Of a stretch of DNA of 32,058 nucleotides, positions 106 through 21,422 are shown piece after piece. The number at the start of each line of letters is the position of its first letter. Position 1 is the first letter of the stretch. The notes beneath the pieces were generated by a model. That model was not told the origin of the DNA, did no database searches, and was given only the letters and a program-made list of their open reading frames with translations. The stretch is taken from positions 1 through 32,058 of the forward strand of contig CAYJDH010000001.1 in the NCBI GenBank assembly GCA_964368915.1. Direction: 5' to 3'. Both the position numbers and the translations under genes were made by a program. This stretch comes from an uncultured Candidatus Saccharibacteria bacterium. Its GTDB lineage: Bacteria > Patescibacteriota > Minisyncoccia > Phycocordibacterales > UBA5272.

Positions 106-154
106 AAATCACAACAACAAATACAATACAATAAAAAAGGCAGAAATAAAAAAA

Positions 155-171
155 GGCCCGCTTCGCGGGCC
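155..171. terminator. Rho-independent terminator hairpin, GGCCCGC-TTC-GCGGGCC
   Basis: Perfect 7-bp GC stem. On the minus strand it is followed by a T7 run (A-run 148-154 on plus), 38 nt downstream of the stop of CDS 209-1423. A second small hairpin, CTGGTC-ATG-GACCAG, lies at 181-195. Confidence 0.7.
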
Positions 172-208
172 TTTGCTGTACTGGTCATGGACCAGACATA
201 TAGGGTTG

Positions 209-1423
209 TTACTTTTTCAGCACCTTGCCGGTTTTGGGATCCCGGCAGACAGTGGTCTTTGTTGTCACCGTTTCGCAATGCGGCTTCTTCGCTTCTTTCC
301 CTGCAATATAGGACAGGGACTTGCCGCGATACTTTCGCTGCATAGCCGGAGTAATGATGAGACGTTGCTCCACTACTGCTGGCTGTGCCACAACTGGTGA
401 TGGCACTGGCGACGAGACGACGACAGCTGGGGCCGGTGGTGTTGGTGGGGTTGGCTTCTCAACGAAAAGAGGACAGTCTTCGGTGTCGTAGTGAGTAATC
501 ACATATTGTGATGCTCCACTACTACCGAATGATGCTCCGGCTGATGAGCCTGCCACACTGTTGCCGCCAGCACCGAGCTGATTACTCGACCCGAAGGTCA
601 CAGTGACCTTTGTCGTTGTAACAGCGTGACCCCAGTAGCTTTCTTTGCCACCAGGACCCTTAATTGTGCGATATTCTTTCGGATCTTCTTTCTTGATCTG
701 CGTGTACGTATAGTCACGCTTCCAAGGGATTAATCCGAACAGAATTGACACCTCTGCTGCCACCGGGCGGTCCTCTACCAGGACGCGAGGTCCGCATCCT
801 TTCGGGGAAATCACCGTCATCGTCGCGCCGACGATCGGAGCTGCGCCGTTTGGTACAGAGTAAGACGCAAATACATACGACTTACTGTTGTCAGTAACAT
901 TGCTCACTGACCGATCACTCGCATCAATGCTCGCGTTCACACCTGAAGTGCTTGGTCCGGAGGTTGCAGTGGATGGTCCCGTCGTAACGTTTCCAATCGC
1001 TGCTGCACCGCCTTGACCGACACCACCCTGTCCACCGCCGCCACCAGTTGCCGTTGATGTTGAGGCACCAGTGGTTGCTGTGTTGGGCCCAACATTAACT
1101 CCCACATTCGCTGCAGCGGCTGCATTGGCTGCTGCTTGCGCTGCGGCCTGAGCGGCTGCCGACGAGTTACTCGTACTACTTGAGCTACTCGACGGAGGAG
1201 CCGGAGGTGTTGGAGGAGGAGGAGGCGGGGGTGGAGGCGGCGGAGGATTGACACAATATCGCGTCACGGGGTCGTAAACCTTCCCCGCAGGACACACGTT
1301 ACAGGCCGGATAGCTTGAGTTGAGTGCCCCGTTATTGCAGTAAGTAGCAAACGCCGGTCGTGCGAAAATCAAAAAGAATAACGCAACAATCGGAATCAGT
1401 AACCTGAGAATCTTTCGATTCAT
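209..1423 (-). CDS. GC-rich cassette 1: secreted low-complexity protein (Pro12 run, Ala/Gln, Gly and Ser/Thr tracts) with an N-terminal Cys motif and a globular central part
   Basis: 404-aa ORF with ATG at 1423 and GGGAGA 7 nt upstream. Signal peptide MNRKILRLLIPIVALFFLIFARPAFA. G/C-ending codons, 63% GC at 1021-1080. Family not recognised. Confidence 0.75.
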   Translation of the reverse strand: MNRKILRLLIPIVALFFLIFARPAFATYCNNGALNSSYPACNVCPAGKVYDPVTRYCVNPPPPPPPPPPPPTPPAPPSSSSSSTSNSSAAAQAAAQAAANAAAAANVGVNVGPNTATTGASTSTATGGGGGQGGVGQGGAAAIGNVTTGPSTATSGPSTSGVNASIDASDRSVSNVTDNSKSYVFASYSVPNGAAPIVGATMTVISPKGCGPRVLVEDRPVAAEVSILFGLIPWKRDYTYTQIKKEDPKEYRTIKGPGGKESYWGHAVTTTKVTVTFGSSNQLGAGGNSVAGSSAGASFGSSGASQYVITHYDTEDCPLFVEKPTPPTPPAPAVVVSSPVPSPVVAQPAVVEQRLIITPAMQRKYRGKSLSYIAGKEAKKPHCETVTTKTTVCRDPKTGKVLKK

Positions 1424-1511
1424 AAATGTTTCTCCCGAAAAAAGTTAATATCAATGATCAATGACATCGGAACAAAGGGTCTTTTCAAACTCTTTGCACC
1501 AATAGGAACAA

Positions 1512-1540
1512 ACACTACTTTAATAGTGCTTGTTTGTCAA
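1512..1540 (-). promoter_or_regulatory. Putative sigma70-type promoter of cassette 1
   Basis: Minus strand reads TTGACA (1540-1535), 17 bp, TAGTGT (1517-1512). It has the same TTGACAA start as the other cassette promoters, but the -10 is weaker. Confidence 0.45.
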
Positions 1541-3954: not shown

Positions 3955-3955
3955 G

Positions 3956-6201: not shown

Positions 6202-7134
6202 ATGCCTGAGTTACCAGAGGTAGAGTCGTTGCGTACCGGATTAGAAAAAGTTTTAAAGTCTAGAACGATAAAAAACATAGAGATAAGAAATGGAAAACTA
6301 GTGAGTGGGTCAGGCACAAAGAGGTCTATAAATAAAAAGAAAAATATTGAGTTTGTGGACAATTTAAAAGACAAGAAAATATTGTCAGTGAAAAGACGTG
6401 CTAAAAATATTTTTATTGAGCTCGACACAAAAGAAATAATATTGGTACATCTAAAAATGACAGGGCAATTGGTGTACGAGCCTCCTACGCTAAAGCTTCG
6501 AAGCCCAGAAAATACAGTAAGAAATAATATAGTGACGGGTGGACACCCAATAGAGGAGTCGTATAGGCAGACCCTCCCCCACAAACATACACATATAATA
6601 TTCACACTCGACAGTGGGACTCTTTATTATAATGACGTGCGCAAATTTGGCTATGTTTTGTATTATAAAAGTATAGACGCAGCAGTAGATGCAAAACATT
6701 TTTCAAAAATAGGACTAGAGCCTTTTGATCCAGCTTTTACATTTACATATTTTAGAGATGAAATAAAAAAGAAAAATAAAGCATTAAAAACAGTGCTCCT
6801 TGAGCAATCGGTAGTTGTAGGTTGCGGCAACATATATGCAGATGAGGTGTGCTTTGCCTCAAAAGTTTTGCCTGGCAGGAATTGTAAGACACTCACCGAT
6901 GCAGAAGCAAAACTAATACACAAAAATATTATCAAAATCTTGCAGCGCGCTATAGATCTTGGTGGCTCATCTATATCTGACTATCTGCTCGCCGATGGCA
7001 GCCGTGGCAACTTTGCTCGCGAGCACAAGGTATATGGCAGAGCTGGAGAAAAATGTGTAGTCTGTAAAAACATCTTAGAAAAGTCCACCATCGCCGGCCG
7101 CACCACAGTCTTCTGCCCTATTTGCCAGAAATAA
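6202..7134 (+). CDS. mutM: Formamidopyrimidine-DNA glycosylase (Fpg/MutM), with insertions relative to typical ~270-aa enzymes
   Basis: MPELPEVE N-terminus, H2TH region, C-terminal zinc finger CVVC...CPICQ. Confidence 0.9.
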   Translation: MPELPEVESLRTGLEKVLKSRTIKNIEIRNGKLVSGSGTKRSINKKKNIEFVDNLKDKKILSVKRRAKNIFIELDTKEIILVHLKMTGQLVYEPPTLKLRSPENTVRNNIVTGGHPIEESYRQTLPHKHTHIIFTLDSGTLYYNDVRKFGYVLYYKSIDAAVDAKHFSKIGLEPFDPAFTFTYFRDEIKKKNKALKTVLLEQSVVVGCGNIYADEVCFASKVLPGRNCKTLTDAEAKLIHKNIIKILQRAIDLGGSSISDYLLADGSRGNFAREHKVYGRAGEKCVVCKNILEKSTIAGRTTVFCPICQK

Positions 7135-7139
7135 AAAAC

Positions 7140-7158
7140 GCCCCGAACAAGTCGGGGC
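7140..7158. terminator. Bidirectional terminator shared by mutM (+) and cassette 2 (-)
   Basis: GCCCCGA-ACAAG-TCGGGGC, with an A-run (7133-7138) upstream and T5 (7159-7163) downstream. Confidence 0.75.
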
Positions 7159-7179
7159 TTTTTCGCCGACTGCCCTGGT

Positions 7180-7698
7180 TTAGGTCAGTCGGATGATAGG
7201 TCGCTCATGATGAGCGAGCATGCGGGTTGCTTGTGTCGCCTTGTTTTGCGCCATTTCGATCAGCTCGACGTATCCTTCACGGATACGATCGAGTTTCGTC
7301 ATGGGCACAGCCGCAGTGACCAAGGTCTCGGCATTGCTGCAATCAGGATCGGATGTCACCAGGGCGACTGCGGGCATCACTGTGTAGTCGGTGCCGACAG
7401 TCTCTGGCTCAACGTTGACGACAGCAGCGGTCCACACGTCTTTCGGCGAGAGGAACAAGTTGAAGTCGGGCACCTCTTGCGAGTTCTTGCCTTCAATCTT
7501 CACAGCCTTCGGATTGTCGGTCGTGTTAACGACTGACAGAAGGGTATTGGTACCGGCGCGAACCGTGTAGTACGGATAGACCAGCGCTTGACCAAGGCCA
7601 TCACCGTTGATGTAAACGGCGTTGGCGGCACCTGCCATAGCGAGGGCGCCAGCACCCGCCAGAGCGGATAACAGGGCCTTTTGCTTGAACGTATTCAT
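7180..7698 (-). CDS. GC-rich cassette 2: secreted protein of unknown function (172 aa precursor)
   Basis: Start placed at ATG 7698 (MNTFKQKALLSALAGAGALAMAGAANA signal peptide), with GAGGAG 12 nt upstream. The track's TTG at 7752 adds a non-signal extension. 60% GC at 7321-7380. Confidence 0.7.
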   Translation of the reverse strand: MNTFKQKALLSALAGAGALAMAGAANAVYINGDGLGQALVYPYYTVRAGTNTLLSVVNTTDNPKAVKIEGKNSQEVPDFNLFLSPKDVWTAAVVNVEPETVGTDYTVMPAVALVTSDPDCSNAETLVTAAVPMTKLDRIREGYVELIEMAQNKATQATRMLAHHERPIIRLT

Positions 7699-7818
7699 AG
7701 TTAGATTTGACTCCTCTGCATTGAGTTTTTGAGTGAACACTTGTAGAATCAACGGCTCTTTGAGGCCGGGGAACGGAATGTTTCTGACGGGGTCTCCTCC
7801 AGAACATTTCTAATTAAA

Positions 7819-7846
7819 ATTCTACTCTTTATATAGCATTTGTCAA
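7819..7846 (-). promoter_or_regulatory. Sigma70-type promoter of cassette 2
   Basis: TTGACA (7846-7841), 16 bp, TAGAAT (7824-7819). The first 12 nt, TTGACAAATGCT, are identical to the cassette 3 promoter. Predicted leader is about 110 nt. Confidence 0.6.
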
Positions 7847-7966: not shown

Positions 7967-7982
7967 CACAAACGTAAAGAAA

Positions 7983-12928: not shown

Positions 12929-15397
12929 TTAGTGATGACCCTTGTGCGCCTCGCCTTTTATCCCAGTATATATAGATCTACCGAGAACAATGAGAACCAG
13001 TATCAGAGCTATTATCGCTAACCACTCTAATACAGTATTAGGTAGGAAAGATCTTTCGTTATCAGTCTTTACGTCTGTCTTTGTTACCTCTGTATTATTT
13101 TTAGCCTCATCTTGAGCTGCTGCTATAGTGCTAACTATATATGCAGTGTTCTCGTCTCTAATAGGTGAACCCTTGCTATCTAATGCGTCATAAGATATGT
13201 ATGTACTGATAACAGCAGACTTGTTTACAGATGCGCTGTCTTTTACTTTTACCTTTACAATCAGATCGTCTGACATACCAGCCCCTACAGTATCTAGATT
13301 TGCAACCACTGTGTTGTTGCTCTCATCGTATATACCTCTGTTGCTGCTAACATATGTCATCTCGCTAGGCAGCACCATCTTGATAGTTGCATTTGTAAGT
13401 TTGATCTTGCTTGTATTTAGATAGTGAGCACGATACTCTACCACCTCTCCTAACGCTACCAGACCTGACTTTTTCTCCAGGGTGATAGACATTAATTTCT
13501 CTCCCTCAGATAGAGACTCTTTTGCACCTGTATCATCTGTACAGATAATAGGCTTTGTTGGAGTCTTTGGATTGCTCGGTGTTACTGGTATATAGGTTAT
13601 AGTGTCACCAGTAGTACGGAATGATATTATCTCACCCCTGTATGTTCCGTTGGCATTGCTCATCACAGCTCTACAATAATATGTAGTATTAGCCTTGAGT
13701 CCTGTTATCTGGTTACCAAATGGTGAAGATGGCAAGTTACCAATAGACGCACTGTTTGTTACGCGTCCCAGGTCGCGAGTCTCACCGTATTCGAACCATC
13801 CATTTGAATATACTCCATTTGATATGATACCTACACCGTTACATCTAGCGCTTGTCTTTGTTATCTGTGTCACCGCTGTTGTTACAACTCTGTGACTAGA
13901 TGGCAAGTTCTGACGCACTGTTACTGTTGTGCTGTCTGTTGCTGATTGGCCTTGGGCGTTATAACAAGTAATAGTATATGTTGTTGTGTCGAGTAGATTT
14001 GATCTATTCATTGACCCCTGTAAATTCACATTGCCGCTCCATCCATTTGAGGCTGTACAATATGTTGCGTTTTGGCTTGTCCATGTCAGTACAGCACTCT
14101 CTCCACGATTTACTATGCTCGGGTTGATGTTGATGTCAACTGTTGGATAGTTGTTATATGTTGGACAGATTTGTGTATCTGGGATAGTTGTCCCATTTGG
14201 ACAAACTCTATAACAAGCCTGTGTGTCCAGTACTGTTGTACCGTTTGGACAAGTCTTGTAACACTGTTGTGATATCAATACTGTTGTACCGTTTGGACAG
14301 ATTTTGTATTGACTTGGACAAACTGACGTTACTGGTATAACTGTACCGTTCCAACATGTTTGTGTTTGATTTGGACATACATCCCAAATGCTAACAGTCT
14401 GACCGTTTGGACAAGTTTTTGTCTGAGGCACACAGCTTGTACCATTCCAATAATAGTTTGTAGGACAATTGTTTGTTACTACATTTGTAACACAATGACC
14501 ATTTGTATACACGAGGCCAGTTGGACAGATATTACATCCAGGATAATTTGTTGCTCCGTTTGTACACACTGGTGTTGGTTGTGTGTATGTTGGTTGTGTA
14601 TATGTATTGTAACTACCTGTAGTGGTGTTATTGTTTACAGTTGTAAATGTCGTGTTTGTGTTTGTATTACAATTGTTTTGCCCTGCACAAGTATTGTTAA
14701 TATTTGTGTTCGTATTTGTATTAGTGTTGTAATTCCAAACAGGAGCATATGTGCTGTTGGTGTTAGTATTTGTACTGGTGTTCCAATTATAACTCGGTGT
14801 CGTGTATGTCGGCGCTGGTCTTATTGTTAGATCTGGATAGCCTGGGTTTATCCATGTAGGGTATGTCGTTGGAGCTATATAGTATGTATTCGGTGTTGTG
14901 TATCCAGTGTATCCGGTATATGTATTTGCTGGTATATACGTGTTAGGTATAGTCTGTGTGTTCCAAGTGTTTGGAGTCACAGTAAGTGTCGGCTCTGGAT
15001 TGCTCCAATAGTTATTGGTTTGTGGTGGAACCCATATTGAATTGGAACAATTACCAATAGAAACACAGTCATTCCATGCGTAGTCTATATTTGGATCTGT
15101 ATAAGTGTTTGTTGGAACAGTTGTTCCGTTTGTATATGAAAAACCTGTATTGTCATAATAAGACCCGTAACTTGAGTTATTCGAGTTGCCACAAAAGCCG
15201 TAACTAATACAGTCATTCCATGCGTAGTCTATATTTGGATCTGTGTAAGTATTTGTTGGAACAGTGGTAGCGTCGTCCCAACAGAACCCCATCTCGTCAC
15301 ACTCAGCTAGAGATATGTTTGTTACAGAAAAGAAAAAGGCCAAGACGAACAAAACTGTTGAGATATTTTTAATTGTTTTAATAAGGTTGTTTTTCAT
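12929..15397 (-). CDS. Large modular cell-surface protein (822 aa): signal peptide, Asn/Thr/Tyr-rich region, Cys-repeat modules, Ig/FN3-like and DUF11-like domains, C-terminal membrane anchor
   Basis: Signal/TM ISTVLFVLAFFFSVTNISLA. Duplicated TTVPTNTYTDPNIDYAWNDC module. At least five CPNG(T/Q)TV Cys repeats. C-terminal FLPNT plus hydrophobic helix plus basic tail. Confidence 0.8.
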   Translation of the reverse strand: MKNNLIKTIKNISTVLFVLAFFFSVTNISLAECDEMGFCWDDATTVPTNTYTDPNIDYAWNDCISYGFCGNSNNSSYGSYYDNTGFSYTNGTTVPTNTYTDPNIDYAWNDCVSIGNCSNSIWVPPQTNNYWSNPEPTLTVTPNTWNTQTIPNTYIPANTYTGYTGYTTPNTYYIAPTTYPTWINPGYPDLTIRPAPTYTTPSYNWNTSTNTNTNSTYAPVWNYNTNTNTNTNINNTCAGQNNCNTNTNTTFTTVNNNTTTGSYNTYTQPTYTQPTPVCTNGATNYPGCNICPTGLVYTNGHCVTNVVTNNCPTNYYWNGTSCVPQTKTCPNGQTVSIWDVCPNQTQTCWNGTVIPVTSVCPSQYKICPNGTTVLISQQCYKTCPNGTTVLDTQACYRVCPNGTTIPDTQICPTYNNYPTVDININPSIVNRGESAVLTWTSQNATYCTASNGWSGNVNLQGSMNRSNLLDTTTYTITCYNAQGQSATDSTTVTVRQNLPSSHRVVTTAVTQITKTSARCNGVGIISNGVYSNGWFEYGETRDLGRVTNSASIGNLPSSPFGNQITGLKANTTYYCRAVMSNANGTYRGEIISFRTTGDTITYIPVTPSNPKTPTKPIICTDDTGAKESLSEGEKLMSITLEKKSGLVALGEVVEYRAHYLNTSKIKLTNATIKMVLPSEMTYVSSNRGIYDESNNTVVANLDTVGAGMSDDLIVKVKVKDSASVNKSAVISTYISYDALDSKGSPIRDENTAYIVSTIAAAQDEAKNNTEVTKTDVKTDNERSFLPNTVLEWLAIIALILVLIVLGRSIYTGIKGEAHKGHH
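15065..15267 (-). repeat. Intragenic duplication, about 59 bp near-identical copies with a 144-bp period
   Basis: ACAGTCATTCCATGCGTAGTCTATATTTGGATCTGT(A/G)TAAGT(G/A)TTTGTTGGAACAGT at about 15065-15123 and 15209-15267. It encodes the repeated TTVPTNTYTDPNIDYAWNDC module. Confidence 0.8.
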
Positions 15398-15429
15398 ATT
15401 GTTTACTTATACTTTTTTAAGTTAAATAC

Positions 15430-15459
15430 ATACTATCACATAAATACCCACTTTGTCAA
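15430..15459 (-). promoter_or_regulatory. Promoter of the 822-aa surface protein gene (extended -10)
   Basis: TTGACA (15459-15454), 18 bp, TGA-TAGTAT (15435-15430). Confidence 0.55.
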
Positions 15460-15460
15460 G

Positions 15461-15469
15461 TTATCCACA
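15461..15469 (+). promoter_or_regulatory. Perfect DnaA-box 9-mer TTATCCACA abutting the -35 of the surface-protein promoter
   Basis: Exact consensus, separated by 1 nt from the -35 hexamer at 15454-15459. Confidence 0.3.
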
Positions 15470-15498
15470 GTTTTGTCTATAATTTTTAGCATAAAAAA

Positions 15499-15526
15499 AC
15501 CCGGAAAGCATGTAGCTACTCCGGGT
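15499..15526 (-). terminator. Terminator of cassette 3
   Basis: ACCCGGA...TCCGGGT stem, followed on the minus strand by T7 (A-run 15492-15498). Confidence 0.7.
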
Positions 15527-15547
15527 TGTGGGCTTTGTACGCTTGCC

Positions 15548-16546
15548 CTATTTGCGCGGACCTTGTGTGCGTCCGGCGATGATGCAAGCGTTCGGGAAAT
15601 TGAAGTATTTCACCACATGGTGCCAAACTTGTTTTTCCACGAACTCCTGATCTGTATCGCAGCTCGCCGACACCTTGCGGTTGGTCAGCATTGATTTAAC
15701 GGTTTTGTTGGCCAACTTTGTGCCGAGGGTTGTCTTGTTGACCGTTCCGTCAGCGTTCATGTCTTCGTCAAGCAGCTCTGTGATTTGCAGGTTGCCAGAC
15801 TTTTCGTCAGTAGCCAACCAGAGAAGGCGATCTTTTGGACCGACATTCCCCACGACGATGCCGCAAATCTTGGCCTTTACCTCGCTACGAAATGTGGCCT
15901 GTTGTTTCCAGGCACATCCCTGTGTGTAGCACATCTCTTTCGAAATGTTTACTTCGGTTTTGCCGATGGCGACGTCGAGCTTTGGTCCTGGGACTGTATG
16001 CTTTTCGCCTGTCCAACCCTTGTCTGTCCACGTTACTTTACCGGAGGTCTCCACCTCCTGTTCAAATGTCATGGTGAGCTTTGGCAACTTGCAGACCAGG
16101 CCGACTTCGGTGGCAACCAATGTCCCGTTGTCAGTGGCGCAAACTTTTTCAAGTTGGCACTTTCCGTCGCAAACAGGACGTTGAATGTCGAGATTGGTCG
16201 CCGGTTCTTCTTTACGAACGACGCCAGCTTTTTCAACCTTGCGGACAACATTACCGCAACCGATGTCGTAAACCTCTCCACCTTTGACAGTGGCATGTTT
16301 ACGAACCTTTGTGGTCCGGCAAGTTACCCAACCTATCATGTCGTCACCGACACGATAGGACATGGTAACGGTAGAGCCGACAGGAATCACTTCCTCCGAC
16401 ACTACTACGTTGTTCTTTTGATCGGCTGCGTAGCGGCCGATTTCCACCGGCGCCACATCGTGACGGCAGTCTTGAACTGCGGCTGCGTGTGCAGCTACAG
16501 AGAACAGTGTGATTACGCTTGCGATCGTGGCGATGAATTTCTTCAT
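15548..16546 (-). CDS. GC-rich cassette 3: secreted Cys-rich protein of unknown function (332 aa precursor)
   Basis: Start placed at ATG 16546 (MKKFIATIASVITLFSVAAHA signal peptide), with GGAG 6 nt upstream. The track's GTG at 16624 lies inside the -10 region. 60% GC at 16081-16140. At least 14 Cys. Confidence 0.75.
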   Translation of the reverse strand: MKKFIATIASVITLFSVAAHAAAVQDCRHDVAPVEIGRYAADQKNNVVVSEEVIPVGSTVTMSYRVGDDMIGWVTCRTTKVRKHATVKGGEVYDIGCGNVVRKVEKAGVVRKEEPATNLDIQRPVCDGKCQLEKVCATDNGTLVATEVGLVCKLPKLTMTFEQEVETSGKVTWTDKGWTGEKHTVPGPKLDVAIGKTEVNISKEMCYTQGCAWKQQATFRSEVKAKICGIVVGNVGPKDRLLWLATDEKSGNLQITELLDEDMNADGTVNKTTLGTKLANKTVKSMLTNRKVSASCDTDQEFVEKQVWHHVVKYFNFPNACIIAGRTQGPRK

Positions 16547-16615
16547 GTGAACTCCAATGTGATTGTACTGTGAACTGATTTTGTTCAGGTTTTTAACTCC
16601 TGAACGCCTGTAAAC

Positions 16616-16643
16616 AGTATACACTATTTACAGCATTTGTCAA
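16616..16643 (-). promoter_or_regulatory. Sigma70-type promoter of cassette 3
   Basis: TTGACA (16643-16638), 16 bp, TATACT (16621-16616). Leader about 65 nt. Confidence 0.65.
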
Positions 16644-16672
16644 GGTGTTTAACCCTTATTTTATATAGAAAA

Positions 16673-16702
16673 ATAGGGTATGCGATCGCTCGCACACCCT
16701 AT
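16673..16702. terminator. Terminator of cassette 4 (compound hairpin containing GCGATCGC)
   Basis: ATAGGGT-A-TGCGA-TCGC-TCGCA-C-ACCCTAT, flanked by an A-run and a T-run. Confidence 0.7.
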
Positions 16703-16718
16703 ATTTTGGCAGTCTGCG

Positions 16719-16901
16719 CTAAGTGGCGCACTGTCCAAGGTTTTTGAAACTTCCCTGCTGAAAACCACTCGGCACCTTGTGGCAGTCAGCTTTTTTAGCG
16801 ATTTCTGCTGTTGGTTGCGTCGGAGTTTTCGTAGATGCCTTTACGTCCCCCTTCGGCGATGCGCCTGAGTCTTTTGGTGGTGGAAATTTTTTCTCCGCCA
16901 C
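16719..16901 (-). CDS. Possible small Lys/Pro-rich protein (60 aa) with a C-terminal Cys...Cys loop, second gene of cassette 4
   Basis: GTG start 14 nt after the stop of the upstream gene, with GAGGA 4 nt upstream. C-terminus CHKVPSGFQQGSFKNLGQC. No signal peptide. Coding status uncertain. Confidence 0.3.
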   Translation of the reverse strand: MAEKKFPPPKDSGASPKGDVKASTKTPTQPTAEIAKKADCHKVPSGFQQGSFKNLGQCAT

Positions 16902-16915
16902 CTCATCCTCAGGCG

Positions 16916-17299
16916 CTACAGCTTTTTTGCAGTCACCTCGACATCCTTGAGAACAGACTGGCGCCCACCTCCGGCAGCACTAAGTCGCTTAAGAGCCTCG
17001 TGCAGCTCATCCTGCATAGCCTTGCGCTGCGCGTTGGCGGCCTTTACTTCCTCAATTTTTTCCTGTTTTTCGACGCCAGCTTGGACGCCGGACTTATGGG
17101 CGGAAGTAATTGCTTCCTCTGTTGACCATTTCCAGACATTTCCAGCAATGATCAGGATCAATACGGCTCCGAGAGCCACAAGTGGCCAAAAATGCTTTGG
17201 CATGTAGTAGGAGAATGTGAGATCCTCCACCGCTTTGGTTGCCGTTGCTACCGTCTTTGCAGACAGAGCTTTTGCTACAGGGTCTACTTCCGTAACCAT
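16916..17299 (-). CDS. GC-rich cassette 4: single-pass membrane protein with a coiled-coil-like C-terminal domain (127 aa)
   Basis: ATG 17299 with GGAGA 6 nt upstream. TM segment FWPLVALGAVLILIIAGNVW. Ala/Lys/Glu-rich heptad-like tail. Confidence 0.65.
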   Translation of the reverse strand: MVTEVDPVAKALSAKTVATATKAVEDLTFSYYMPKHFWPLVALGAVLILIIAGNVWKWSTEEAITSAHKSGVQAGVEKQEKIEEVKAANAQRKAMQDELHEALKRLSAAGGGRQSVLKDVEVTAKKL

Positions 17300-17409
17300 G
17301 TTTTCTCCGTGCGGATTTTTGATATTATCTCACCGCAAAATTTTAAAAAAAGAAAGTTTTGTAAATTACCCTTATGAATAAAGATTATTTCTCAAAACCT
17401 CTGTATTCA

Positions 17410-17437
17410 AGTATACACCTTTTTATCAACTTGTCAA
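17410..17437 (-). promoter_or_regulatory. Sigma70-type promoter of cassette 4
   Basis: TTGACA (17437-17432), 16 bp, TATACT (17415-17410). AT-rich leader of about 100 nt. Confidence 0.65.
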
Positions 17438-17492
17438 GACTAGACCAAGGGGTGTAAATGTTACTTTTTAATATGAAAATAGAATAAAAAAA

Positions 17493-17521
17493 GCCAGGGT
17501 CCTGTGAGGGATTGTCCTGGC
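17493..17521 (-). terminator. Terminator of cassette 5
   Basis: GCCAGG...CCTGGC stem, followed on the minus strand by T7 (A-run 17486-17492). Confidence 0.7.
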
Positions 17522-17597
17522 GTGAAGTATCGAGGCCTGCGGAGTCGCGTGAGGGGGCACGTCCGAATCCGGTTGGTTCAAAGCCTCGAATTCTGCG

Positions 17598-17939
17598 CTA
17601 TGTCTCGATTATCATCGGGACATCAGTGTCATTTTCGCCGCCGTCTGTCGACATGCGTGGCATGCGTGGTGGGATCGCCGGCGACTGATAGCGATAGTTA
17701 GGCCCGCCACAATGCGAACCGTAAACAGTCTGAACGCAACCATTGTTATTTTGCAACTGGCAGACAAAGCTGCCGTTCGGGTTCCGACCAACAGCAACTG
17801 ACCCTGGGGCGCAGGGTACTACCACTCCTGCGGTTGGAGCGTAAACGACTGGCTGTTGCCGAACATAGTGACGGTTGTCACAGCCCATCAGAGCCAGTGT
17901 CGCGATCGCGGCGATCGCGACGAGGATTTTAGTGTACAT
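17598..17939 (-). CDS. GC-rich cassette 5: probable lipoprotein or secreted Cys-containing protein (113 aa)
   Basis: ATG 17939 with AGGAGA 8 nt upstream. MYTKILVAIAAIATLALMGC is lipobox-like. Six further Cys in the mature part. Confidence 0.7.
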   Translation of the reverse strand: MYTKILVAIAAIATLALMGCDNRHYVRQQPVVYAPTAGVVVPCAPGSVAVGRNPNGSFVCQLQNNNGCVQTVYGSHCGGPNYRYQSPAIPPRMPRMSTDGGENDTDVPMIIET

Positions 17940-17983
17940 TGCTCTTTCTCCTATAGAATTGAGCGAGTTTCGAGACTAGACAC

Positions 17984-18011
17984 AGTATACACTATTCGCT
18001 GTGTTTGTCAA
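17984..18011 (-). promoter_or_regulatory. Sigma70-type promoter of cassette 5
   Basis: TTGACA (18011-18006), 16 bp, TATACT (17989-17984). AATAGTGTATACTGT is shared with the cassette 3 promoter. Confidence 0.65.
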
Positions 18012-18040
18012 GTACAGCAAATTAACCGTCAATAAGAAAA

Positions 18041-18060
18041 AGGCCTGCTGCTACAGGCCT
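18041..18060. terminator. Terminator of cassette 6
   Basis: AGGCCTG-CTGCTA-CAGGCCT with an A-run upstream and a T-run downstream. Confidence 0.75.
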
Positions 18061-18081
18061 TTTTTCCGGACAACCCTGTTT

Positions 18082-18399
18082 CTATTTGGGTTCCGGAAGG
18101 AGTTTTTTCAAACCGAGCACGAGGATGTTGCCTTGGCTACAGCTAAGCCGGCGGCCTGGGGCAATCATCAGTTGTCCCTTCTCACACTCAGGCCCATTGG
18201 GGCCGTTGATGATCCGGACCGGCTCATCGCCGTAGGGAAACTGGATATCCGCCACAAGTAAACCAAAAAACAGGGCGTCTTTGTGTTCGAACGGCACCGC
18301 GAGCCCGATTGGTGCGGACATTTTTTTGTCCTGCACAAAGTCGGCCGAGGCCGTACAAGAAACAGCCACCAAAACGGCAGCAAGAAGGAGCTTTTTCAT
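18082..18399 (-). CDS. GC-rich cassette 6: small secreted protein (105 aa precursor)
   Basis: Start placed at ATG 18399 (MKKLLLAAVLVAVSCTASA signal peptide), with GAGG 6 nt upstream. The track's TTG at 18477 is itself the -35 hexamer. Confidence 0.7.
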   Translation of the reverse strand: MKKLLLAAVLVAVSCTASADFVQDKKMSAPIGLAVPFEHKDALFFGLLVADIQFPYGDEPVRIINGPNGPECEKGQLMIAPGRRLSCSQGNILVLGLKKLLPEPK

Positions 18400-18449
18400 G
18401 GAAACCTCACGATAGTTATGCGGCGGGATGCCGCGATATTCCCAAACGC

Positions 18450-18477
18450 ATTCTAAATGAAAACAAAATATTGTCAA
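18450..18477 (-). promoter_or_regulatory. Sigma70-type promoter of cassette 6
   Basis: TTGACA (18477-18472), 16 bp, TAGAAT (18455-18450). Confidence 0.6.
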
Positions 18478-18522: not shown

Positions 18523-18528
18523 TTGATT

Positions 18529-20223
18529 ATGTTAAACGATGTCGCGGAATTAAAAATCAAAACCAGCCTAGACAAACTGGCTAGTGATGACGAGGAGCGC
18601 GAGGCTGAGTACCTAGCTCAACAATCTGGACTCCCCTATGTGGACCTGCGTATCAAAAGCCCTGAGCTGGATGCCTTAGCAAAAGTCCCGGTGGCTGAAT
18701 CTGAAAAATATGACCTGGTACCGTTCCGCCTGGTTGGCAGACAAATGCATGTGGCGATAAAGGACCCCACTCGTGATGATGTGGTGCAATACTTGGCGAG
18801 TGTGTCGACGAGAGATGAGAAACCAATAATATATGTCGCCTCAAAAACATCAATCAAAAGAGTGCAACAGAGATACAAAGACTTGGACTCGGAGACAACA
18901 GTAGAACGTGGACTGGTCGACCTCAACGAGTCACATTTAAAGGAGTTACTCCAGGACATCACCACCCTGCCGGAATTTAGAACTAGACTGGAAAAGGTTG
19001 TGATGAATGAAAATAGAGAAAGGGTCTCAAAAATAATCGAGATGACCCTGGTTGGAGCTATACATTTTGGGGTGAGTGATATACATATAGAGCCAGAGGA
19101 TGACGCTGTAAAAGTCAGATATCGTATAGACGGTATGTTGCAAGACATTTTCTTTACAGATATAAAAACTTTTAATCTGGTTAATAGTCGCCTCAAGCTG
19201 CTCTCTGGTTTAAAACTATCAACTCAAAAAGTAGCACAAGATGGAAGATTTGAAATAGAGTTTGAAGGCGCAAAAATAGAAGTGCGTGTATCGCTGGTAC
19301 CTGGAAACTATGGCGAGAACTATGTGATGAGAATATTGGATCCAAAAGCGGCGAACGTTAGCTTTGATTCTCTTGGTATGAATGCAAAAGTTTTCTCGTT
19401 GCTCGAGAGGTCTCTAAAGAAACCATATGGGATGATACTAAACACTGGACCAACAGGGTCAGGTAAATCAACAACCTTGTATGCGTGTCTAAAGAAAACC
19501 TATACACCTGAGAAAAAAATTATCACTATCGAGGACCCGATAGAGTATCACATGGACGGCATCACACAGACACAAGTGGACACAAAAAAAGACTATACAT
19601 TTCTCCTCGGTTTGCGTGCGGCTTTGCGTCAGGACCCAGATATTATAATGGTGGGAGAGATACGCGACGAAGACACAGCAAAAGTCGCAGCGAGTGCGGC
19701 GTTGACTGGTCACATTGTCCTCTCTACCCTACACACCAACTCGGCCGCAGGAGCTATACCCCGCATGATAGACCTCGGAGTTGATGCGAAAACATTGGGA
19801 TCATCAATAGGCCTGGTGATGGCTCAGCGCCTGTGTCGTAAACTTTGTACACATTGTAAGGAGGAGAGAGAAACAACAACAGAGGAATCAAAACTCATAA
19901 CGGACATATTGGGTAATATGGTGGCCGATGGTAAGGAGGTGTCTATACAGCCACAAAAAATATATAAAATAGGAACAGCAAACCCTAATGGGTGTGAAGC
20001 ATGTCACAATGGCTACAAAGGTCGTATAGGAATATTTGAAGCTATACAAATGACAAGAGAAATAGAAGAGGCGGCAGTAGCCGGAAAAGGTGAGCGCGAA
20101 CTGCGCGAGGTGGCAATATCTCAGCTCATACCCACCATGCGCGAAGATGGTATAATAAAGATGCTAGAGGGGGTCACCTCACTAGAAGAGCTGGAAACAG
20201 TTGTGGATATATACGAAAAATAA
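18529..20223 (+). CDS. pilB: Type II/IV secretion-system ATPase, GspE/PilB family (type IV pilus assembly ATPase-like)
   Basis: N-terminal GSPII_E_N-like domain. Walker A GPTGSGKSTT, Asp box, Walker B DPDIIMVGEIRD, His box TGHIVLSTLHTN, tetracysteine CRKLCTHC...CEAC. ATG 18529 preferred over the track's TTG 18523. Confidence 0.9.
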   Translation: MLNDVAELKIKTSLDKLASDDEEREAEYLAQQSGLPYVDLRIKSPELDALAKVPVAESEKYDLVPFRLVGRQMHVAIKDPTRDDVVQYLASVSTRDEKPIIYVASKTSIKRVQQRYKDLDSETTVERGLVDLNESHLKELLQDITTLPEFRTRLEKVVMNENRERVSKIIEMTLVGAIHFGVSDIHIEPEDDAVKVRYRIDGMLQDIFFTDIKTFNLVNSRLKLLSGLKLSTQKVAQDGRFEIEFEGAKIEVRVSLVPGNYGENYVMRILDPKAANVSFDSLGMNAKVFSLLERSLKKPYGMILNTGPTGSGKSTTLYACLKKTYTPEKKIITIEDPIEYHMDGITQTQVDTKKDYTFLLGLRAALRQDPDIIMVGEIRDEDTAKVAASAALTGHIVLSTLHTNSAAGAIPRMIDLGVDAKTLGSSIGLVMAQRLCRKLCTHCKEERETTTEESKLITDILGNMVADGKEVSIQPQKIYKIGTANPNGCEACHNGYKGRIGIFEAIQMTREIEEAAVAGKGERELREVAISQLIPTMREDGIIKMLEGVTSLEELETVVDIYEK

Positions 20224-20375: not shown

Positions 20376-20414
20376 GAAACTTAACTGCCAGCCATTATAA
20401 CACATTTAAACTTC

Positions 20415-21422
20415 ATGTCAAGTACCCAAAAAGAAGACGAAAATATAGACGATGTGTCTGCTTCTCCTGATGCAAAACATCTGGATGCAACGTTACGCCC
20501 CACTTCATTTGAATATTATATTGGGCAAGAGGTTATAAAGAAAAATGTTGGGGTGTTGCTCGAGGCAGCTCTAGCTCGTGGGTCACCGCCAGAGCATATA
20601 TTGTTATACGGCCCACCAGGACTTGGCAAAACAACACTCGCACACATCATAGCGAGAACACTGAACACAAATATTAAAATCACATCTGGTCCAACTCTCA
20701 CAAAGGTGGGCGACCTCGCTGCGATACTAACCAATTTACAACCGCATGATGTGTTGTTCATAGACGAGATACACAGACTGAACAAATTAATAGAGGAGGT
20801 GTTATACCCTGCCATGGAGTCTGGTGTGCTCGACATCATAATAGGCAAAGGTCCTGCGGCACGCAGTATACAGTTAGACATTCCCCCATTCACTCTGGTC
20901 GGGGCAACTACTCGTGTGTCACTGTTATCGTCACCGCTCCGCTCTAGATTTTCAGGTGGTACATACAGATTGCAATTTTACACATTGGAGGAGCTCGCAA
21001 AAATAGTCGTGCGTAGCAGTGAGACATTGGGTGCAAATATAAATATGGAGGCAGCATTAGAAATAGCAAAACGTAGTAGATACACACCACGCATCGCGAA
21101 CTTTTATCTCAAGCGTGCTCGCGACTATGCAGAGGTCAGCGGTGTGCCACTAAACCTAGACACCGTGCGAACCGCACTCGAGATGTTGGAAATAGACGAA
21201 CACGGGCTGGGACACAGTGAGCGCGAATACTTGTCAGCGCTGATGGATAAGTTTGACGGTGGTCCAGTTGGACTATCAACATTAGCCGCAACATTGTCAG
21301 AAGAAGACAACACATTGGAAGATGTTATCGAGCCATACCTGTTGCAAATGGGACTGATTGAAAAAACCACGAGAGGTAGGATGTTAACCGAGCAAGGCAA
21401 AAAACATGTTGCCGGAAAATAG
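20415..21422 (+). CDS. ruvB: Holliday junction branch migration DNA helicase RuvB
   Basis: LRP..F.EYIGQ, GPPGLGKTTLA, LFIDEIHRL, sensor and winged-helix regions. Confidence 0.95.
   Translation: MSSTQKEDENIDDVSASPDAKHLDATLRPTSFEYYIGQEVIKKNVGVLLEAALARGSPPEHILLYGPPGLGKTTLAHIIARTLNTNIKITSGPTLTKVGDLAAILTNLQPHDVLFIDEIHRLNKLIEEVLYPAMESGVLDIIIGKGPAARSIQLDIPPFTLVGATTRVSLLSSPLRSRFSGGTYRLQFYTLEELAKIVVRSSETLGANINMEAALEIAKRSRYTPRIANFYLKRARDYAEVSGVPLNLDTVRTALEMLEIDEHGLGHSEREYLSALMDKFDGGPVGLSTLAATLSEEDNTLEDVIEPYLLQMGLIEKTTRGRMLTEQGKKHVAGK

What the first reader, a model, noticed from the sequence alone, without database searches (positions are those of the whole stretch)
15499..18477. Four tandem GC-rich secreted-protein cassettes, each with its own promoter and terminator, between the adhesin gene and pilB
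Composition jumps from about 25-40% GC in the backbone to about 60% here (hand counts: 23% at 26101-26160, 38% at 10261-10320, 60% at 16081-16140). The ~3 kb block holds four consecutive minus-strand transcription units: 15548-16546, 16719/16916-17299, 17598-17939 and 18082-18399. Each sits behind a short AT-rich spacer carrying TTGACA-16 bp-TA(T/G)A(C/A)T, followed by a 40-100 nt leader and a GGAG-type RBS 6-8 nt before the ATG. Each ORF uses G/C-ending codons, starts with a signal peptide, lipobox or TM anchor, and ends at a private hairpin plus T-run terminator. I recognise none of the products, and several are Cys-rich. I see no integrase, transposase, phage genes or attC-like sites, so prophage, IS and integron models do not fit. 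Two more units with the same anatomy lie at 209-1540 and 7140-7846. All six are on the minus strand, which is co-directional with a fork leaving the putative oriC near 26.9 kb. My working idea is a horizontally acquired secretome, perhaps from a higher-GC host or partner, placed behind native-type strong promoters. A cassette-capture mechanism is possible, but I cannot name one.
Basis: partly seen in the sequence, partly recalled or inferred. Interest (0 to 1): 0.85.

Follow-up and report, generated by a model that had tools for sequence, protein, structure and literature searches.

The report
Conserved hypervariable GC-rich surface-protein island
Between a pilus motor gene and a giant adhesin gene, this ultra-small (Saccharibacteria-type) bacterium keeps a fast-changing set of strongly promoted secreted-protein genes written in a GC-rich codon 'dialect'; the set is inherited and reshuffled among relatives rather than recently imported, and probably mediates contact with its host cell.

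Summary
Window 15499-18477 carries four minus-strand transcription units, each with a TTGACA-16 nt-TATACT/TAGAAT promoter, a GGAG/GAGG ribosome-binding site, an export or membrane signal and a hairpin+U terminator. Coding GC is 0.52-0.56 against a 0.395 backbone. These genes almost never use ATA, AGA/AGG or CTA/TTA, which the backbone prefers.

Five independent assemblies span the junctions, so the block is not chimeric. All ten related loci examined that keep the adhesin neighbourhood carry a GC-rich block at this position, out to PolA about 53% identity. Where backbone genes were available, its GC sits about 12 points above them.

The content is hypervariable: dN/dS is 0.23-0.44 against 0.00-0.07, genes come and go, and the c1 protein is a mosaic of swapped domains. 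The proteins match no known family or PDB fold.

True foreign origin is shown for only one extra unit, 7180-7698, a truncated copy of a family whose named members are mostly Betaproteobacteria.

Best reading: an ancestral, replacement-type flexible island of surface and secreted host-interaction proteins. Why its composition persists is unexplained.

The parts
18450..18477 (-). c4 promoter: TTGACA, 16-nt spacer, TAGAAT
   Evidence: Nearly identical in L006, differing at one base of the shown stretch.
18082..18399 (-). c4 CDS, 105 aa. Sec signal MKKLLLAAVLVAVSCTASA|DF, 3 Cys. GC 0.54, GC3 0.62.
   Evidence: Found only in the window lineage and L006 (86% aa, dN/dS 0.23).
18035..18067 (-). c4 intrinsic terminator: GGCCUG...CAGGCC hairpin plus U-run
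   Evidence: z -2.9.
17984..18011 (-). c3 promoter: TTGACA, 16-nt spacer, TATACT. It is a copy of a 31-nt promoter module.
   Evidence: (family D1).
17598..17939 (-). c3 CDS, 113 aa lipoprotein with lipobox LMGC. Cys- and Pro-rich. GC 0.56.
   Evidence: The family is present in 8 of 9 syntenic loci. 57% aa identity to L006, and the 3' part has been replaced.
17486..17521 (-). c3 terminator, after a ~75-nt GC-rich 3' UTR
   Evidence: z -3.0.
17410..17437 (-). c2 promoter: TTGACA, 16-nt spacer, TATACT. The leader motif 'acagagg' is conserved in 7 relatives.
16916..17299 (-). c2 CDS, 127 aa. TM anchor (residues ~38-58) followed by a coiled coil. GC 0.52.
   Evidence: Weak hits only: DUF4381 at E 0.001, below the curated cut-off, and Rz-like spanin at E 0.0044. 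dN/dS 0.29.
16719..16901 (-). c2b, a 60-aa ORF in another frame of the same transcription unit. It ends in the motif C-H-K-V-P-S-G-F...C.
   Evidence: 71% aa in L006. The same motif forms the C-terminus of the fused c2-like proteins of L099 (287 aa) and L098 (313 aa).
16673..16702 (-). c2/c2b terminator: 13-bp hairpin plus U-run
   Evidence: z -5.3.
16616..16643 (-). c1 promoter: TTGACA, 16-nt spacer, TATACT. The palindrome CTGTAAA...TTTACAG brackets the -10 element.
15548..16546 (-). c1 CDS, 332 aa secreted protein with 12 Cys. Mosaic of N-terminal, middle and C-terminal modules. GC 0.52, GC3 0.58.
   Evidence: AF2 pLDDT 70.9 and no PDB fold match.
15493..15527 (-). c1 terminator
   Evidence: z -3.5.
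12929..15397 (-). Flanking giant adhesin, 822 aa, with a DUF11/CLIPPER domain. It has the same promoter type (15430-15459) but native codon usage.
   Evidence: Its N-terminal ~120 aa are replaced together with the c1 C-terminus relative to L006.
18523..20223 (+). Flanking pilB (T2SSE/MshEN type IV pilus ATPase), transcribed divergently
7134..7846 (-). u190 unit: promoter 7819-7846, CDS 7180-7698 (172 aa from the ATG), terminator ~7134-7164. It is a truncated, horizontally acquired gene of a family whose named members are mostly Betaproteobacteria. It lies beside tRNA-Lys (7894-7967, + strand).
146..1540 (-). u404 unit: promoter 1512-1540, CDS 209-1423 (404 aa; signal peptide, poly-Pro and Ala/Gly/Ser-rich tracts), terminator ~146-174
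   Evidence: It shares a 22-aa Cys motif with the native adhesin.

Best explanation
The block is an ancestral, position-fixed but content-variable locus of a Saccharimonadia (Patescibacteria) clade. It behaves as a replacement-type flexible genomic island and lies between pilB and the adhesin-tsaE-polA-h188 gene string.

It encodes lineage-specific exported proteins: the secreted 12-Cys protein c1, the membrane-anchored coiled-coil protein c2 with its Cys-loop tail c2b, the lipoprotein c3, and the lineage-restricted secreted protein c4. Each is transcribed alone from a near-consensus sigma-70 promoter and closed by its own terminator (shown).

Diversity arises by relaxed or diversifying protein evolution, gene gain and loss, and homologous replacement of whole domains and alleles between related strains, with conserved promoters and flanks as likely crossover anchors. 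The mosaics are shown; the recombination mechanism is inferred.

The products most likely sit on or leave the epibiont surface and act in recognition of, or attack on, the host cell, evolving in an arms race. This is inferred from the export signals, the pilus and adhesin neighbourhood and the evolutionary pattern.

The GC-rich codon dialect, which avoids ATA, AGR, CTA and TTA, is largely confined to the coding sequences (spacers 0.34-0.42 GC against 0.52-0.56 for the CDSs, although c3's 3' UTR is GC-rich). It tracks each genome's own GC with a constant offset. It is therefore maintained within the lineage, most probably by selection on the coding sequence through codon choice and an Ala/Pro/Val/Gly-rich composition. 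It is not a leftover of recent import. This step is inferred and its cause is unresolved.

Genuine import does occur in the same format: the u190 unit was acquired from a GC-rich donor lineage, most likely Betaproteobacteria.
For: Not chimeric. Five Logan assemblies from five runs carry pilB-c4-c3-c2-c1 contiguously.

Conserved position. A GC-rich block sits between the adhesin and pilB in L006, L091, L086/87, L089, L099, L033, L007 and L010, whose PilB identity ranges from 98% to 50%. It sits next to adhesins-TsaE-PolA in L095, whose PolA is 53% identical. Promoters are conserved position by position even where the downstream CDS differs.

Real genes, inherited vertically in the short term. 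dN/dS is 0.23-0.44 for the island genes against 0.00-0.07 for the backbone. dS is 0.33-0.52 for c1, c2 and c4, comparable to the backbone range of 0.38-0.82.

Hypervariability.
- c1 identity between the window and L006 is 95%, 88% and 39% for the three modules.
- Against L099 it is 27%, 33% and 85%, although the L099 backbone is 80-94% identical.
- L089 has a backbone 88-93% identical but a c1 only 37% identical.
- Nucleotide homology to L006 breaks exactly at 15043-15831 and 17495-17740.
- c4 is found only in the window and L006; other genes occupy the locus in L033, L007 and L010.

Dialect. ATA makes up 2 of 55 Ile codons and AGR 1 of 44 Arg codons in the seven GC-rich ORFs, against about 63% and 51% in the backbone. 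The same holds in the eight genomes tabulated, and also in L099, L095 and L098. In the low-GC genomes the island genes are at 0.44-0.46 against a backbone of about 0.32-0.35.

GC enrichment is largely confined to CDSs. Spacers and the c2 leader are AT-rich.

Orphan status. c1 has 7 hits among 5.8e9 proteins and 37 representatives among 1.84e9. There is no match in NCBIfam or PADLOC; Pfam gives only a sub-threshold DUF4381 hit and PHROGs a weak Rz-like spanin hit, both for c2; c1 has no PDB fold match.

u404 shares a Cys motif with the native adhesin.

u190 has foreign homologues.
Against: - No expression, localisation or host-binding data exist, so function is inferred from context only.
- The cause of the GC and codon offset is not established. 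The adhesin has the same promoter type but native codon usage. Ribosomal protein L34 uses AGA for 4 of 5 Arg codons, so simple high-expression codon selection is not supported. S20 does avoid ATA (0 of 4) and AGR (1 of 7).
- Polarised substitutions on the terminal branches show a mild GC-to-AT excess in the island (68 against 47 overall; 10 against 1 at fourfold sites). This could mean slow decay rather than equilibrium, although parsimony bias affects these counts.
- An ancient foreign origin of c1-c4 cannot be excluded, because fast evolution would erase detectable homology.
- u190 shows that the import-behind-a-native-promoter route exists.
- The context of most distant c1-family hits could not be inspected.
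Confidence: 0.6

Rival explanations
1. One reading: the four cassettes are a horizontally acquired secretome from a higher-GC host or partner. Each foreign CDS was captured behind a native strong promoter, and the GC excess is foreign composition that has not yet ameliorated.
For: - Unit u190 has exactly this anatomy and has 269 homologues at 45-55% identity. Those that carry a name are mostly Betaproteobacteria, and one homologue-bearing contig has 0.69 GC. Its GC3 of 0.65 fits partial amelioration.
- The island dialect (rare ATA, AGR and CTA; frequent CCG, ACG, TCG and CGG) resembles usage in moderately GC-rich Proteobacteria.
- The island's CpG ratio is 1.06 against 0.77 in the backbone.
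- The signal peptides and lipobox are generic Sec and Lol types.
- There is a mild GC-to-AT excess on recent branches.
Against: - The block is present at the same site in every syntenic relative, out to PolA and PilB identities of about 50-53%. The families c1, c2/c2b and c3 are shared, and dS is backbone-like.
- At that depth synonymous sites are saturated, so an unselected foreign signal should have disappeared. Yet the offset persists and scales with each genome's GC: 0.52-0.56 against 0.40 here, and 0.44-0.46 against 0.32-0.35 in L095 and L098.
- No c1 homologue was seen outside Patescibacteria-type contexts.
- u404 shares a motif with the native adhesin.
- No integrase, attC-like site or flanking repeat is present.
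- The dinucleotide signature distance of 104 lies within the backbone range (mean 69, max 112).
Confidence: 0.2
2. GC-biased gene conversion: the locus is a recombination hot spot, and repeated allelic exchange with a GC-favouring repair bias raises its GC above the genome mean in every lineage.
For: - Recombination at the locus is evident from domain mosaics and allele replacement between close relatives.
- The offset is relative to each genome's GC rather than an absolute value.
Against: - GC enrichment largely stops at CDS boundaries. The intergenic spacers (0.34-0.42) and the c2 leader are AT-rich although they lie inside any plausible conversion tract.
- Recent polarised changes do not show an AT-to-GC excess: 47 against 68.
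- The adjacent adhesin N-terminus is also recombinationally replaced but has native composition.
Confidence: 0.08
3. Translational selection alone: these are simply the most highly expressed genes of the cell, and their codon usage is the optimal-codon set of this organism.
For: - The promoters are near-consensus with 16-nt spacers, the RBSs are strong, the terminators are private and the genes are co-oriented with the neighbouring polA, tsaE and adhesin genes.
- Ribosomal protein S20 also avoids ATA (0 of 4) and AGR (1 of 7).
- Avoidance of ATA, AGR and CTA is a classic optimal-codon pattern (general knowledge).
Against: - S20 has backbone-like GC3 (0.40), and L34 uses AGA for 4 of 5 Arg codons.
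- The adhesin has the same promoter class but native usage: ATA 28 of 53, AGR 11 of 17.
- G-ending CpG codons (CCG, ACG, TCG, CGG) and GC1 and GC2 also rise, which optimal-codon selection does not predict.
Confidence: 0.1
4. Assembly artefact: GC-rich pieces from another organism were mis-joined into a low-GC contig.
For: Sharp compositional steps in a metagenome-derived sequence.
Against: - The same pilB-c4-c3-c2-c1 arrangement, with identical c3, c4, c2 and c1 proteins, occurs in five independent run assemblies.
- Homologous arrangements occur in more than 10 MAGs or contigs from other studies.
- Island dS is consistent with backbone dS.
Confidence: 0.01

Closest known systems
Replacement-type flexible genomic islands (the 'metagenomic islands' of Prochlorococcus, SAR11, Alteromonas and Haloquadratum, as framed by Rodriguez-Valera and colleagues; cited from my own knowledge)
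   Same: - Fixed chromosomal position between conserved core genes.
- Present in every strain but with divergent or non-homologous content.
- Encodes exposed cell-surface components.
- Alleles are exchanged by recombination in the conserved flanks.
- Atypical composition.
- Interpreted as the result of arms races with parasites or partners.
   Different: - Here the cargo is a handful of small orphan exported proteins rather than glycosylation clusters.
- Every gene is its own strongly promoted and terminated unit.
- The compositional deviation is upward in GC, and it persists with a constant offset across genomes of 32-41% GC.
- The organism is itself an epibiont or parasite.
Hypervariable gene module of Thermococcales centred on an Ig-domain protein (PMC8416519; title and abstract seen)
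   Same: A large surface protein gene sits next to unique combinations of small downstream genes that vary between close relatives. That module is interpreted as a conflict or self-nonself recognition system.
   Different: - Different domain of life and no sequence relationship.
- I did not read beyond the abstract, so no compositional dialect or single-gene promoter/terminator architecture is known to me for that system.
Polymorphic toxin / contact-dependent inhibition loci (CdiA-CT, Rhs, MafB; cited from my own knowledge)
   Same: c1 has a conserved N-terminal part and a C-terminal ~110-aa domain that is swapped between otherwise near-identical strains: 39% against 95% identity.
   Different: - No recognisable toxin domain and no PDB fold match.
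- No downstream immunity gene; the next feature is the adhesin promoter.
- The N-terminal and middle modules are also swapped (L099, L089).
- No orphan CT/immunity arrays.
Integron gene-cassette arrays
   Same: A tandem series of small, co-oriented, unrelated ORFs of unknown function.
   Different: - No IntI, attI or attC.
- The cassettes carry their own promoters and terminators, whereas integron cassettes are typically promoterless.
- The order and families are conserved among relatives.
Horizontal gene transfer into Patescibacteria (survey in PMC12455944)
   Same: The u190 unit fits the pattern of individually transferred genes from phylogenetically distant bacteria, including Pseudomonadota donors.
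   Different: That survey reports most transfers as being between Patescibacteria, and notes that ancient transfers become invisible through amelioration. The four-cassette block shows the opposite: a compositional anomaly that does not ameliorate.

Membership tests
Integron cassette array | Tyrosine-recombinase integrase (IntI) with an adjacent attI site | tested here: not met
   Pfam scans of all 32 window ORFs found no integrase or recombinase other than RuvC.
Integron cassette array | attC imperfect inverted repeats at each cassette's 3' end, and promoterless cassettes | tested here: not met
   The only repeated element is the 31-nt promoter module. The 3' ends are ordinary hairpin+U terminators. 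Each unit has its own TTGACA/TATACT promoter.
Classical horizontally acquired genomic island | Atypical base composition and codon usage | tested here: met
   GC 0.52-0.56 against 0.395. ATA 2 of 55 and AGR 1 of 44, against about 63% and 51% in the backbone.
Classical horizontally acquired genomic island | Sporadic distribution, with empty sites in close relatives | tested here: not met
   All ten related loci examined that keep the adhesin neighbourhood carry a GC-rich block there. No empty site was found.
Classical horizontally acquired genomic island | Mobility signatures: integrase, flanking direct repeats, tRNA target | tested here: not met
   None are present for the block. Only u190 lies beside a tRNA gene (tRNA-Lys 7894-7967), and it has no integrase or repeats.
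Classical horizontally acquired genomic island | Closest homologues in a different, donor-like taxon | tested here: not met
   - c1: 7 close hits and 37 representatives. All contexts inspected are Patescibacteria-type.
- This feature is met only for the separate unit u190.
Replacement-type flexible genomic island | Same locus between conserved core genes in all strains, with divergent or non-homologous content | tested here: met
   Flanks are 95-99% identical in L006, while the island proteins are 57-86% identical. L033, L007 and L010 carry other gene families at the site.
Replacement-type flexible genomic island | Exchange by homologous recombination, seen as mosaic boundaries and allele trees that disagree with the genome tree | tested here: met
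   Module identities of 95/88/39% and 27/33/85%. L089 has c1 at 37% identity with a backbone at 88-93%. blastn homology breaks at defined points.
Replacement-type flexible genomic island | Cargo is exposed on the cell surface or secreted | tested here: inconclusive
   Signal peptides, a lipobox and a TM anchor were read from the sequences. No dedicated predictor was run and no experiment is available.
Polymorphic toxin system | Variable C-terminal toxin domain of a recognisable family, plus a cognate immunity gene immediately downstream | tested here: not met
   The C-terminus is variable. No toxin family was found in Pfam, NCBIfam or PADLOC, and there is no fold match. No ORF lies between c1 and the adhesin promoter.
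Phage Rz/Rz1 spanin pair | Significant similarity to i-spanin and o-spanin families within a lysis cassette | tested here: not met
   Only c2 gave a weak hit, to phrog_4297 at E 0.0044. There is no holin, endolysin or any other phage gene.
Diversity-generating retroelement target | Reverse transcriptase and a template/variable repeat pair | tested here: not met
   No reverse transcriptase domain in the window. No TR/VR-like direct repeat in or near the block.
Optimal-codon (highly expressed) gene class | The same codon preferences as ribosomal-protein genes of the same genome | tested here: inconclusive
   Only two ribosomal-protein genes are in reach. S20 has ATA 0 of 4 and AGR 1 of 7 but GC3 of 0.40. 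L34 has AGA 4 of 5. The full ribosomal-protein set could not be fetched.

The most novel reading that the evidence does not exclude
The persistent GC-rich dialect that avoids ATA and AGR may mark a class of Patescibacteria genes whose sequence is tuned to something outside the epibiont's normal translation regime. One possibility is adaptation to the host's decoding system or nucleic-acid environment. That would make these units analogous to Agrobacterium T-DNA genes: carried by the parasite but built for the host, perhaps delivered through the conjugation-type T4SS or the type IV pilus machinery encoded nearby. A more modest version is a dedicated, selection-maintained 'effector codon dialect' that separates host-interaction genes from housekeeping genes across a whole clade. 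The named relatives of u190 would then point to a Gram-negative host for a Saccharimonadia lineage, whereas the cultivated members of the group grow on Actinobacteria.
Probability: 0.06. Interest if true: 0.9.

Novelty: new variant of a known kind. Interest (0 to 1): 0.55.

Why it matters
Host recognition and exploitation by Patescibacteria is largely unexplained, and most candidate factors are unannotated orphans.

This locus offers a concrete, comparably positioned set of candidates: the c1, c2/c2b, c3 and c4 families. They lie next to the pilus ATPase and a giant adhesin, show the evolutionary hallmarks of an arms race, and can be found in other genomes by synteny plus a simple signature (a TTGACA/TATACT promoter combined with avoidance of ATA and AGR).

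The compositional result also cautions against a common shortcut. A GC or codon anomaly here does not mean recent transfer, and would mislead island-prediction and bin-decontamination tools.

Finally, the one proven transfer (u190, from a family whose named members are mostly Betaproteobacteria) gives a testable clue to the partner organisms of this uncultured lineage.

Tried and rejected
- Chimeric assembly: rejected. Five independent assemblies and many MAGs carry the arrangement.
- Integron, IS, prophage and DGR models: rejected. No integrase, transposase, reverse transcriptase or phage genes, and no attC or TR/VR repeats.
- Known RNA elements in the long leaders or 3' UTRs: none at Rfam gathering scores, and none credible at E<=1.
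- Function by homology for c1-c4, u404 and u190. NCBIfam and PADLOC gave nothing. Pfam gave only a sub-threshold DUF4381 hit for c2, and PHROGs gave only a weak spanin hit for c2, which I do not credit.
- Structure route. The first AF2 model of c1 was poor (pLDDT 48). A 27-sequence alignment raised it to 70.9, with confident N- and C-terminal domains. Foldseek against the PDB found nothing (best E 0.42).
- Dinucleotide signature as a test of foreignness: not discriminating. Delta* was 104 against a backbone range up to 112.
- Polarised substitution counts, meant to decide between equilibrium and amelioration: the numbers are too small and are affected by parsimony bias.
- Attempts to obtain more highly expressed genes of this genome. 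Look-ups with window proteins near the ends failed or gave short contigs.
- Metagenome scans. The c1 alignments A3 and A1 had no conserved stretch. A4 found no relative. Fpg found only relatives at 39% identity.
- Literature searches for a prior description of GC-rich secreted-protein islands in Saccharibacteria, or for the sample accessions: nothing relevant.
- oriC near 26.9 kb: DnaA-box count is not above chance, so I did not rely on replication-direction arguments.

Full report
**1. What the window is.** Pfam scans show an ordinary small bacterial chromosome segment. It carries dnaA, dnaN, rnpA, yidC, a class A PBP, tyrS, ruvABC, pilB, polA, tsaE, fpg, a Mur ligase, S20, three tRNAs, an Ig/He_PIG protein and an 822-aa DUF11/CLIPPER adhesin. 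The closest public genomes are MAGs labelled Candidatus Saccharibacteria. Backbone GC is 0.395.

**2.
- Composition. The block as a whole is 0.497, its CDSs are 0.516-0.556 and its spacers 0.34-0.42. Windows of 300 bp inside the GC-rich units average 0.509, against 0.394 +/- 0.047 for the backbone (p = 7e-9).
- ORFs. The four units are c1 (15548-16546), c2 (16916-17299) with the extra 60-aa ORF c2b (16719-16901), c3 (17598-17939) and c4 (18082-18399).
- Promoters. Each unit is preceded by TTGACA, a 16-nt spacer and TATACT or TAGAAT. The window has 10 matches to the pattern against 2.9 expected, and none of 100 shuffles reaches 10. Seven distinct minus-strand sites precede a gene: these four units, the adhesin, and the two further GC-rich units u190 and u404.
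- Terminators. All six GC-rich units end in a GC hairpin plus U-run.
- Export signals. Read directly from the translations: Sec signals in c1, c4, u190 and u404, a lipobox (LMGC) in c3 and a TM anchor in c2.

**3. It is not an assembly artefact.** The exact c3 protein is found on five Logan contigs from five sequencing runs. Each runs from pilB through c4, c3 and c2 into c1.

**4. The codon 'dialect'.** The difference is more than a GC shift.
- In the seven GC-rich ORFs, ATA is 2 of 55 Ile codons and AGA/AGG 1 of 44 Arg codons. CTA and TTA are almost absent. Backbone genes use ATA for about 63% of Ile and AGR for about 51% of Arg.
- GC1 and GC2 are also higher. Ala, Pro, Val and Gly are enriched, and Ile, Leu, Phe and Tyr are depleted.
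- CpG is not depleted in the units (ratio 1.06 against 0.77), but the overall dinucleotide distance is within backbone variation.
- The adhesin and the Ig protein are also exported, and the adhesin has the same promoter type. Both use the native dialect.

**5. Relatives: position conserved, content not.** I used PilB to fetch genome loci and c1 homologues to fetch contigs. I examined ten related loci that keep the adhesin neighbourhood.
- Eight loci keep adhesin...pilB: L006, L091, L086/87, L089, L099, L033, L007 and L010, with PilB identity from 98% to 50%. Each has a minus-strand GC-rich block (0.50-0.60) at that exact place. No empty site was found.
- A more distant genome, L095, has backbone GC of 0.26-0.34 and PolA 53% identical. 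It has c1-like and two other genes at GC 0.44 next to adhesins-TsaE-PolA-h188.
- L098, with neighbouring genes at GC 0.33-0.35, has c1-like and c2-like genes at 0.45-0.46, each behind a TTGACA promoter.
- In all of these the island genes avoid ATA and AGR. The anomaly is therefore ancestral and scales with each genome's own GC, at roughly +12 points.
- Promoters are conserved position by position. An example is the c2-position promoter 'agtcTTGACAa...gtatact...acagagg'. This holds even where the downstream CDS is 127, 134, 245, 287 or 318 aa.
- Three promoters inside the window are copies of one 31-nt module. That module is the only repeat in the block.

**6. Fast evolution and mosaicism.**
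- Rates against the nearest relative, L006. Backbone proteins are 92-99.8% identical with dN/dS of 0.00-0.07. The island genes give 0.44 (c1), 0.29 (c2), 0.31 (c3) and 0.23 (c4). Their dS values are 0.47, 0.52 and 0.33 for c1, c2 and c4, within or near the backbone range. They are therefore real coding genes that co-diverged with the genome but are weakly constrained or diversifying.
- Domain replacement in c1. Much of the c1 divergence is wholesale domain replacement. The window and L006 are 95%, 88% and 39% identical over residues 1-110, 111-222 and 223-332. The window and the L099 protein are 27%, 33% and 85% identical, although the L099 backbone is 80-94% identical.
- Allele replacement. 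L089 has a backbone 88-93% identical and a c1 only 37% identical.
- Breakpoints. Nucleotide homology to L006 is lost at 15043-15831 (the c1 C-terminal module, the spacer and the adhesin N-terminus) and at 17495-17740 (the c3 3' part).
- Family distribution. c3 is in 8 of 9 loci, c1 in 6, c2 in 3 and c4 in 2. Other families fill the site in L033, L007 and L010.
- c2 and c2b. c2b carries a C-H-x-V-P-x-G-F...C motif. That motif is the C-terminus of single fused c2-like proteins in L099 and L098, so c2 and c2b are a split version of one ancestral gene.

**7. What the proteins are.**
- NCBIfam and PADLOC give no match for any of them. Pfam gives only a sub-threshold DUF4381 hit for c2 (E 0.001). 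PHROGs gives only a weak Rz-like spanin hit for c2 (E 0.0044), typical of TM plus coiled-coil proteins.
- c1 has 7 relatives among 5.8e9 proteins and 37 representatives among 1.84e9. Every context I could inspect is Patescibacteria-like.
- A 27-sequence AF2 model has pLDDT of 70.9, with confident beta-rich N-terminal and alpha/beta C-terminal domains. It matches no PDB fold.
- u404 has only two weak database hits. It shares a 22-aa Cys motif, CxNGAxN..YPxCNxCPxGxVY, with the native adhesin, which argues for a native origin.

**8. One unit is truly foreign.** u190 (7180-7698) aligns to the N-terminal ~170 residues of a ~280-aa secreted family. The family has 269 hits at 45-55% identity. The hits that carry a name are mostly Betaproteobacteria (Casimicrobiaceae, Usitatibacter). 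One homologue-bearing contig has GC of 0.69 and encodes secretin-type genes. The window copy is truncated and lacks three conserved residues, and L089 has a further truncated copy at the same site. Its GC3 of 0.65, against 0.79 in that homologue and 0.38 in the backbone, fits partial amelioration since an acquisition that predates the window/L006/L089 split. This amelioration estimate is my inference. u190 lies beside tRNA-Lys, with no integrase.

**9. Explaining the composition.**
- A recent foreign origin of c1-c4 is contradicted by sections 5 and 6.
- An ancient foreign origin cannot be excluded, but it does not explain why the offset survives saturation of synonymous sites and tracks each genome's GC.
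- Regional GC-biased gene conversion is disfavoured. GC enrichment largely stops at CDS ends, and recent polarised changes show 47 AT-to-GC against 68 GC-to-AT.
- Simple optimal-codon selection is not supported by the little ribosomal-protein evidence in reach. S20 avoids ATA and AGR but has normal GC3. L34 uses AGA for 4 of 5 Arg codons. The strongly promoted adhesin uses native codons.
- I therefore conclude that the dialect is maintained by selection acting on these coding sequences, through amino-acid composition plus codon choice. Its cause remains open.

**10. Verdict.** The finding is a genuine and well-described feature. Its 'acquired secretome / cassette capture' reading is right for one peripheral unit and wrong in timing and mechanism for the four-cassette block. 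That block is an ancestral, replacement-type hypervariable island of exported orphan proteins next to the pilus and adhesin genes, most plausibly host-interaction factors. It is a new variant of a known kind of locus, with an unexplained and potentially informative compositional signature.

Noticed in passing
window 20394-20421 (- strand) and downstream to ~20222: An eighth consensus promoter, TTGACA-16 nt-TATAAT, lies in the pilB-ruvB spacer and points back toward the 3' end of pilB. It would give a ~170-nt transcript ending at a T-run that overlaps the pilB stop codon. No ORF and no Rfam match are present. It may be a small RNA or an antisense RNA.
   Followed up: partly
window 16719-17299; L099 8601-9464; L098 2794-3735: c2 (127 aa) and c2b (60 aa, +2 frame) together correspond to single fused proteins of 287-313 aa in relatives. 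Those proteins end in the same C-H-x-V-P-x-G-F...C motif. The split is shared by the window and L006, and c2 is truncated at the same point in L089. It could be a conserved gene fission or a programmed frameshift.
   Followed up: partly
window 16616-16643 and the equivalent c1 promoters in L006, L091, L086 and L089: A 7-bp inverted repeat, CTGTAAA...TTTACAG, brackets the -10 element, which itself sits in the palindrome GTATAC. L086 carries a two-sided change, CTGCAAA...TTTGCAG, that keeps the symmetry. This may be an operator for a dimeric regulator shared by the island promoters.
   Followed up: no
window backbone genes generally (for example polA 10041-12398): Backbone codon usage is itself unusual. 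ATA accounts for about 63% of Ile codons, far above ATT and ATC, and AGA for about 41% of Arg codons.
   Followed up: no
window 25500-27000 (dnaN 25677-26780): dnaN and its surroundings are markedly AT-rich (GC 0.27-0.31; dnaN GC3 0.23). dnaN is also less conserved than its neighbours: 92.6% aa identity to L006 against 97-99.8%. DnaA boxes are not enriched anywhere in the window (11 hits against 10.4 expected).
   Followed up: partly
L103 10553-11861 (the L006 genome) compared with window 6202-7180: In the nearest relative, a ~300-bp insertion carrying an 83-aa ORF (GC 0.48) follows the u190 orthologue. fpg is called as only 204 aa, so it is truncated or frameshifted. The pyrophosphatase gene between S20 and DUF1295 is absent.
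   Followed up: no
L086 6678-7361, L033 6513-7205, L007 6513-7190: Three relatives carry an extra 225-230-aa gene between the adhesin and the GC-rich genes. It has native low-GC composition (0.36-0.39) and ends in CPPCPxGQxCN. That motif resembles the N-termini of the GC-rich 139-160-aa paralogue pair found in L033 and L007.
   Followed up: no
window 30554-31378 (- strand): This ORF combines a T4SS-pilin domain (PF18895) with a VanY D-Ala-D-Ala carboxypeptidase domain. It hints at a conjugation-type type IV secretion locus just beyond the window end.
   Followed up: no
window 3514-4027: tRNA-Arg(GCG), at 3955-4027 on the minus strand, overlaps the first ~16 codons of the longest pyrophosphatase ORF (3514-4002). 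The true start of that gene must therefore lie further downstream.
   Followed up: no
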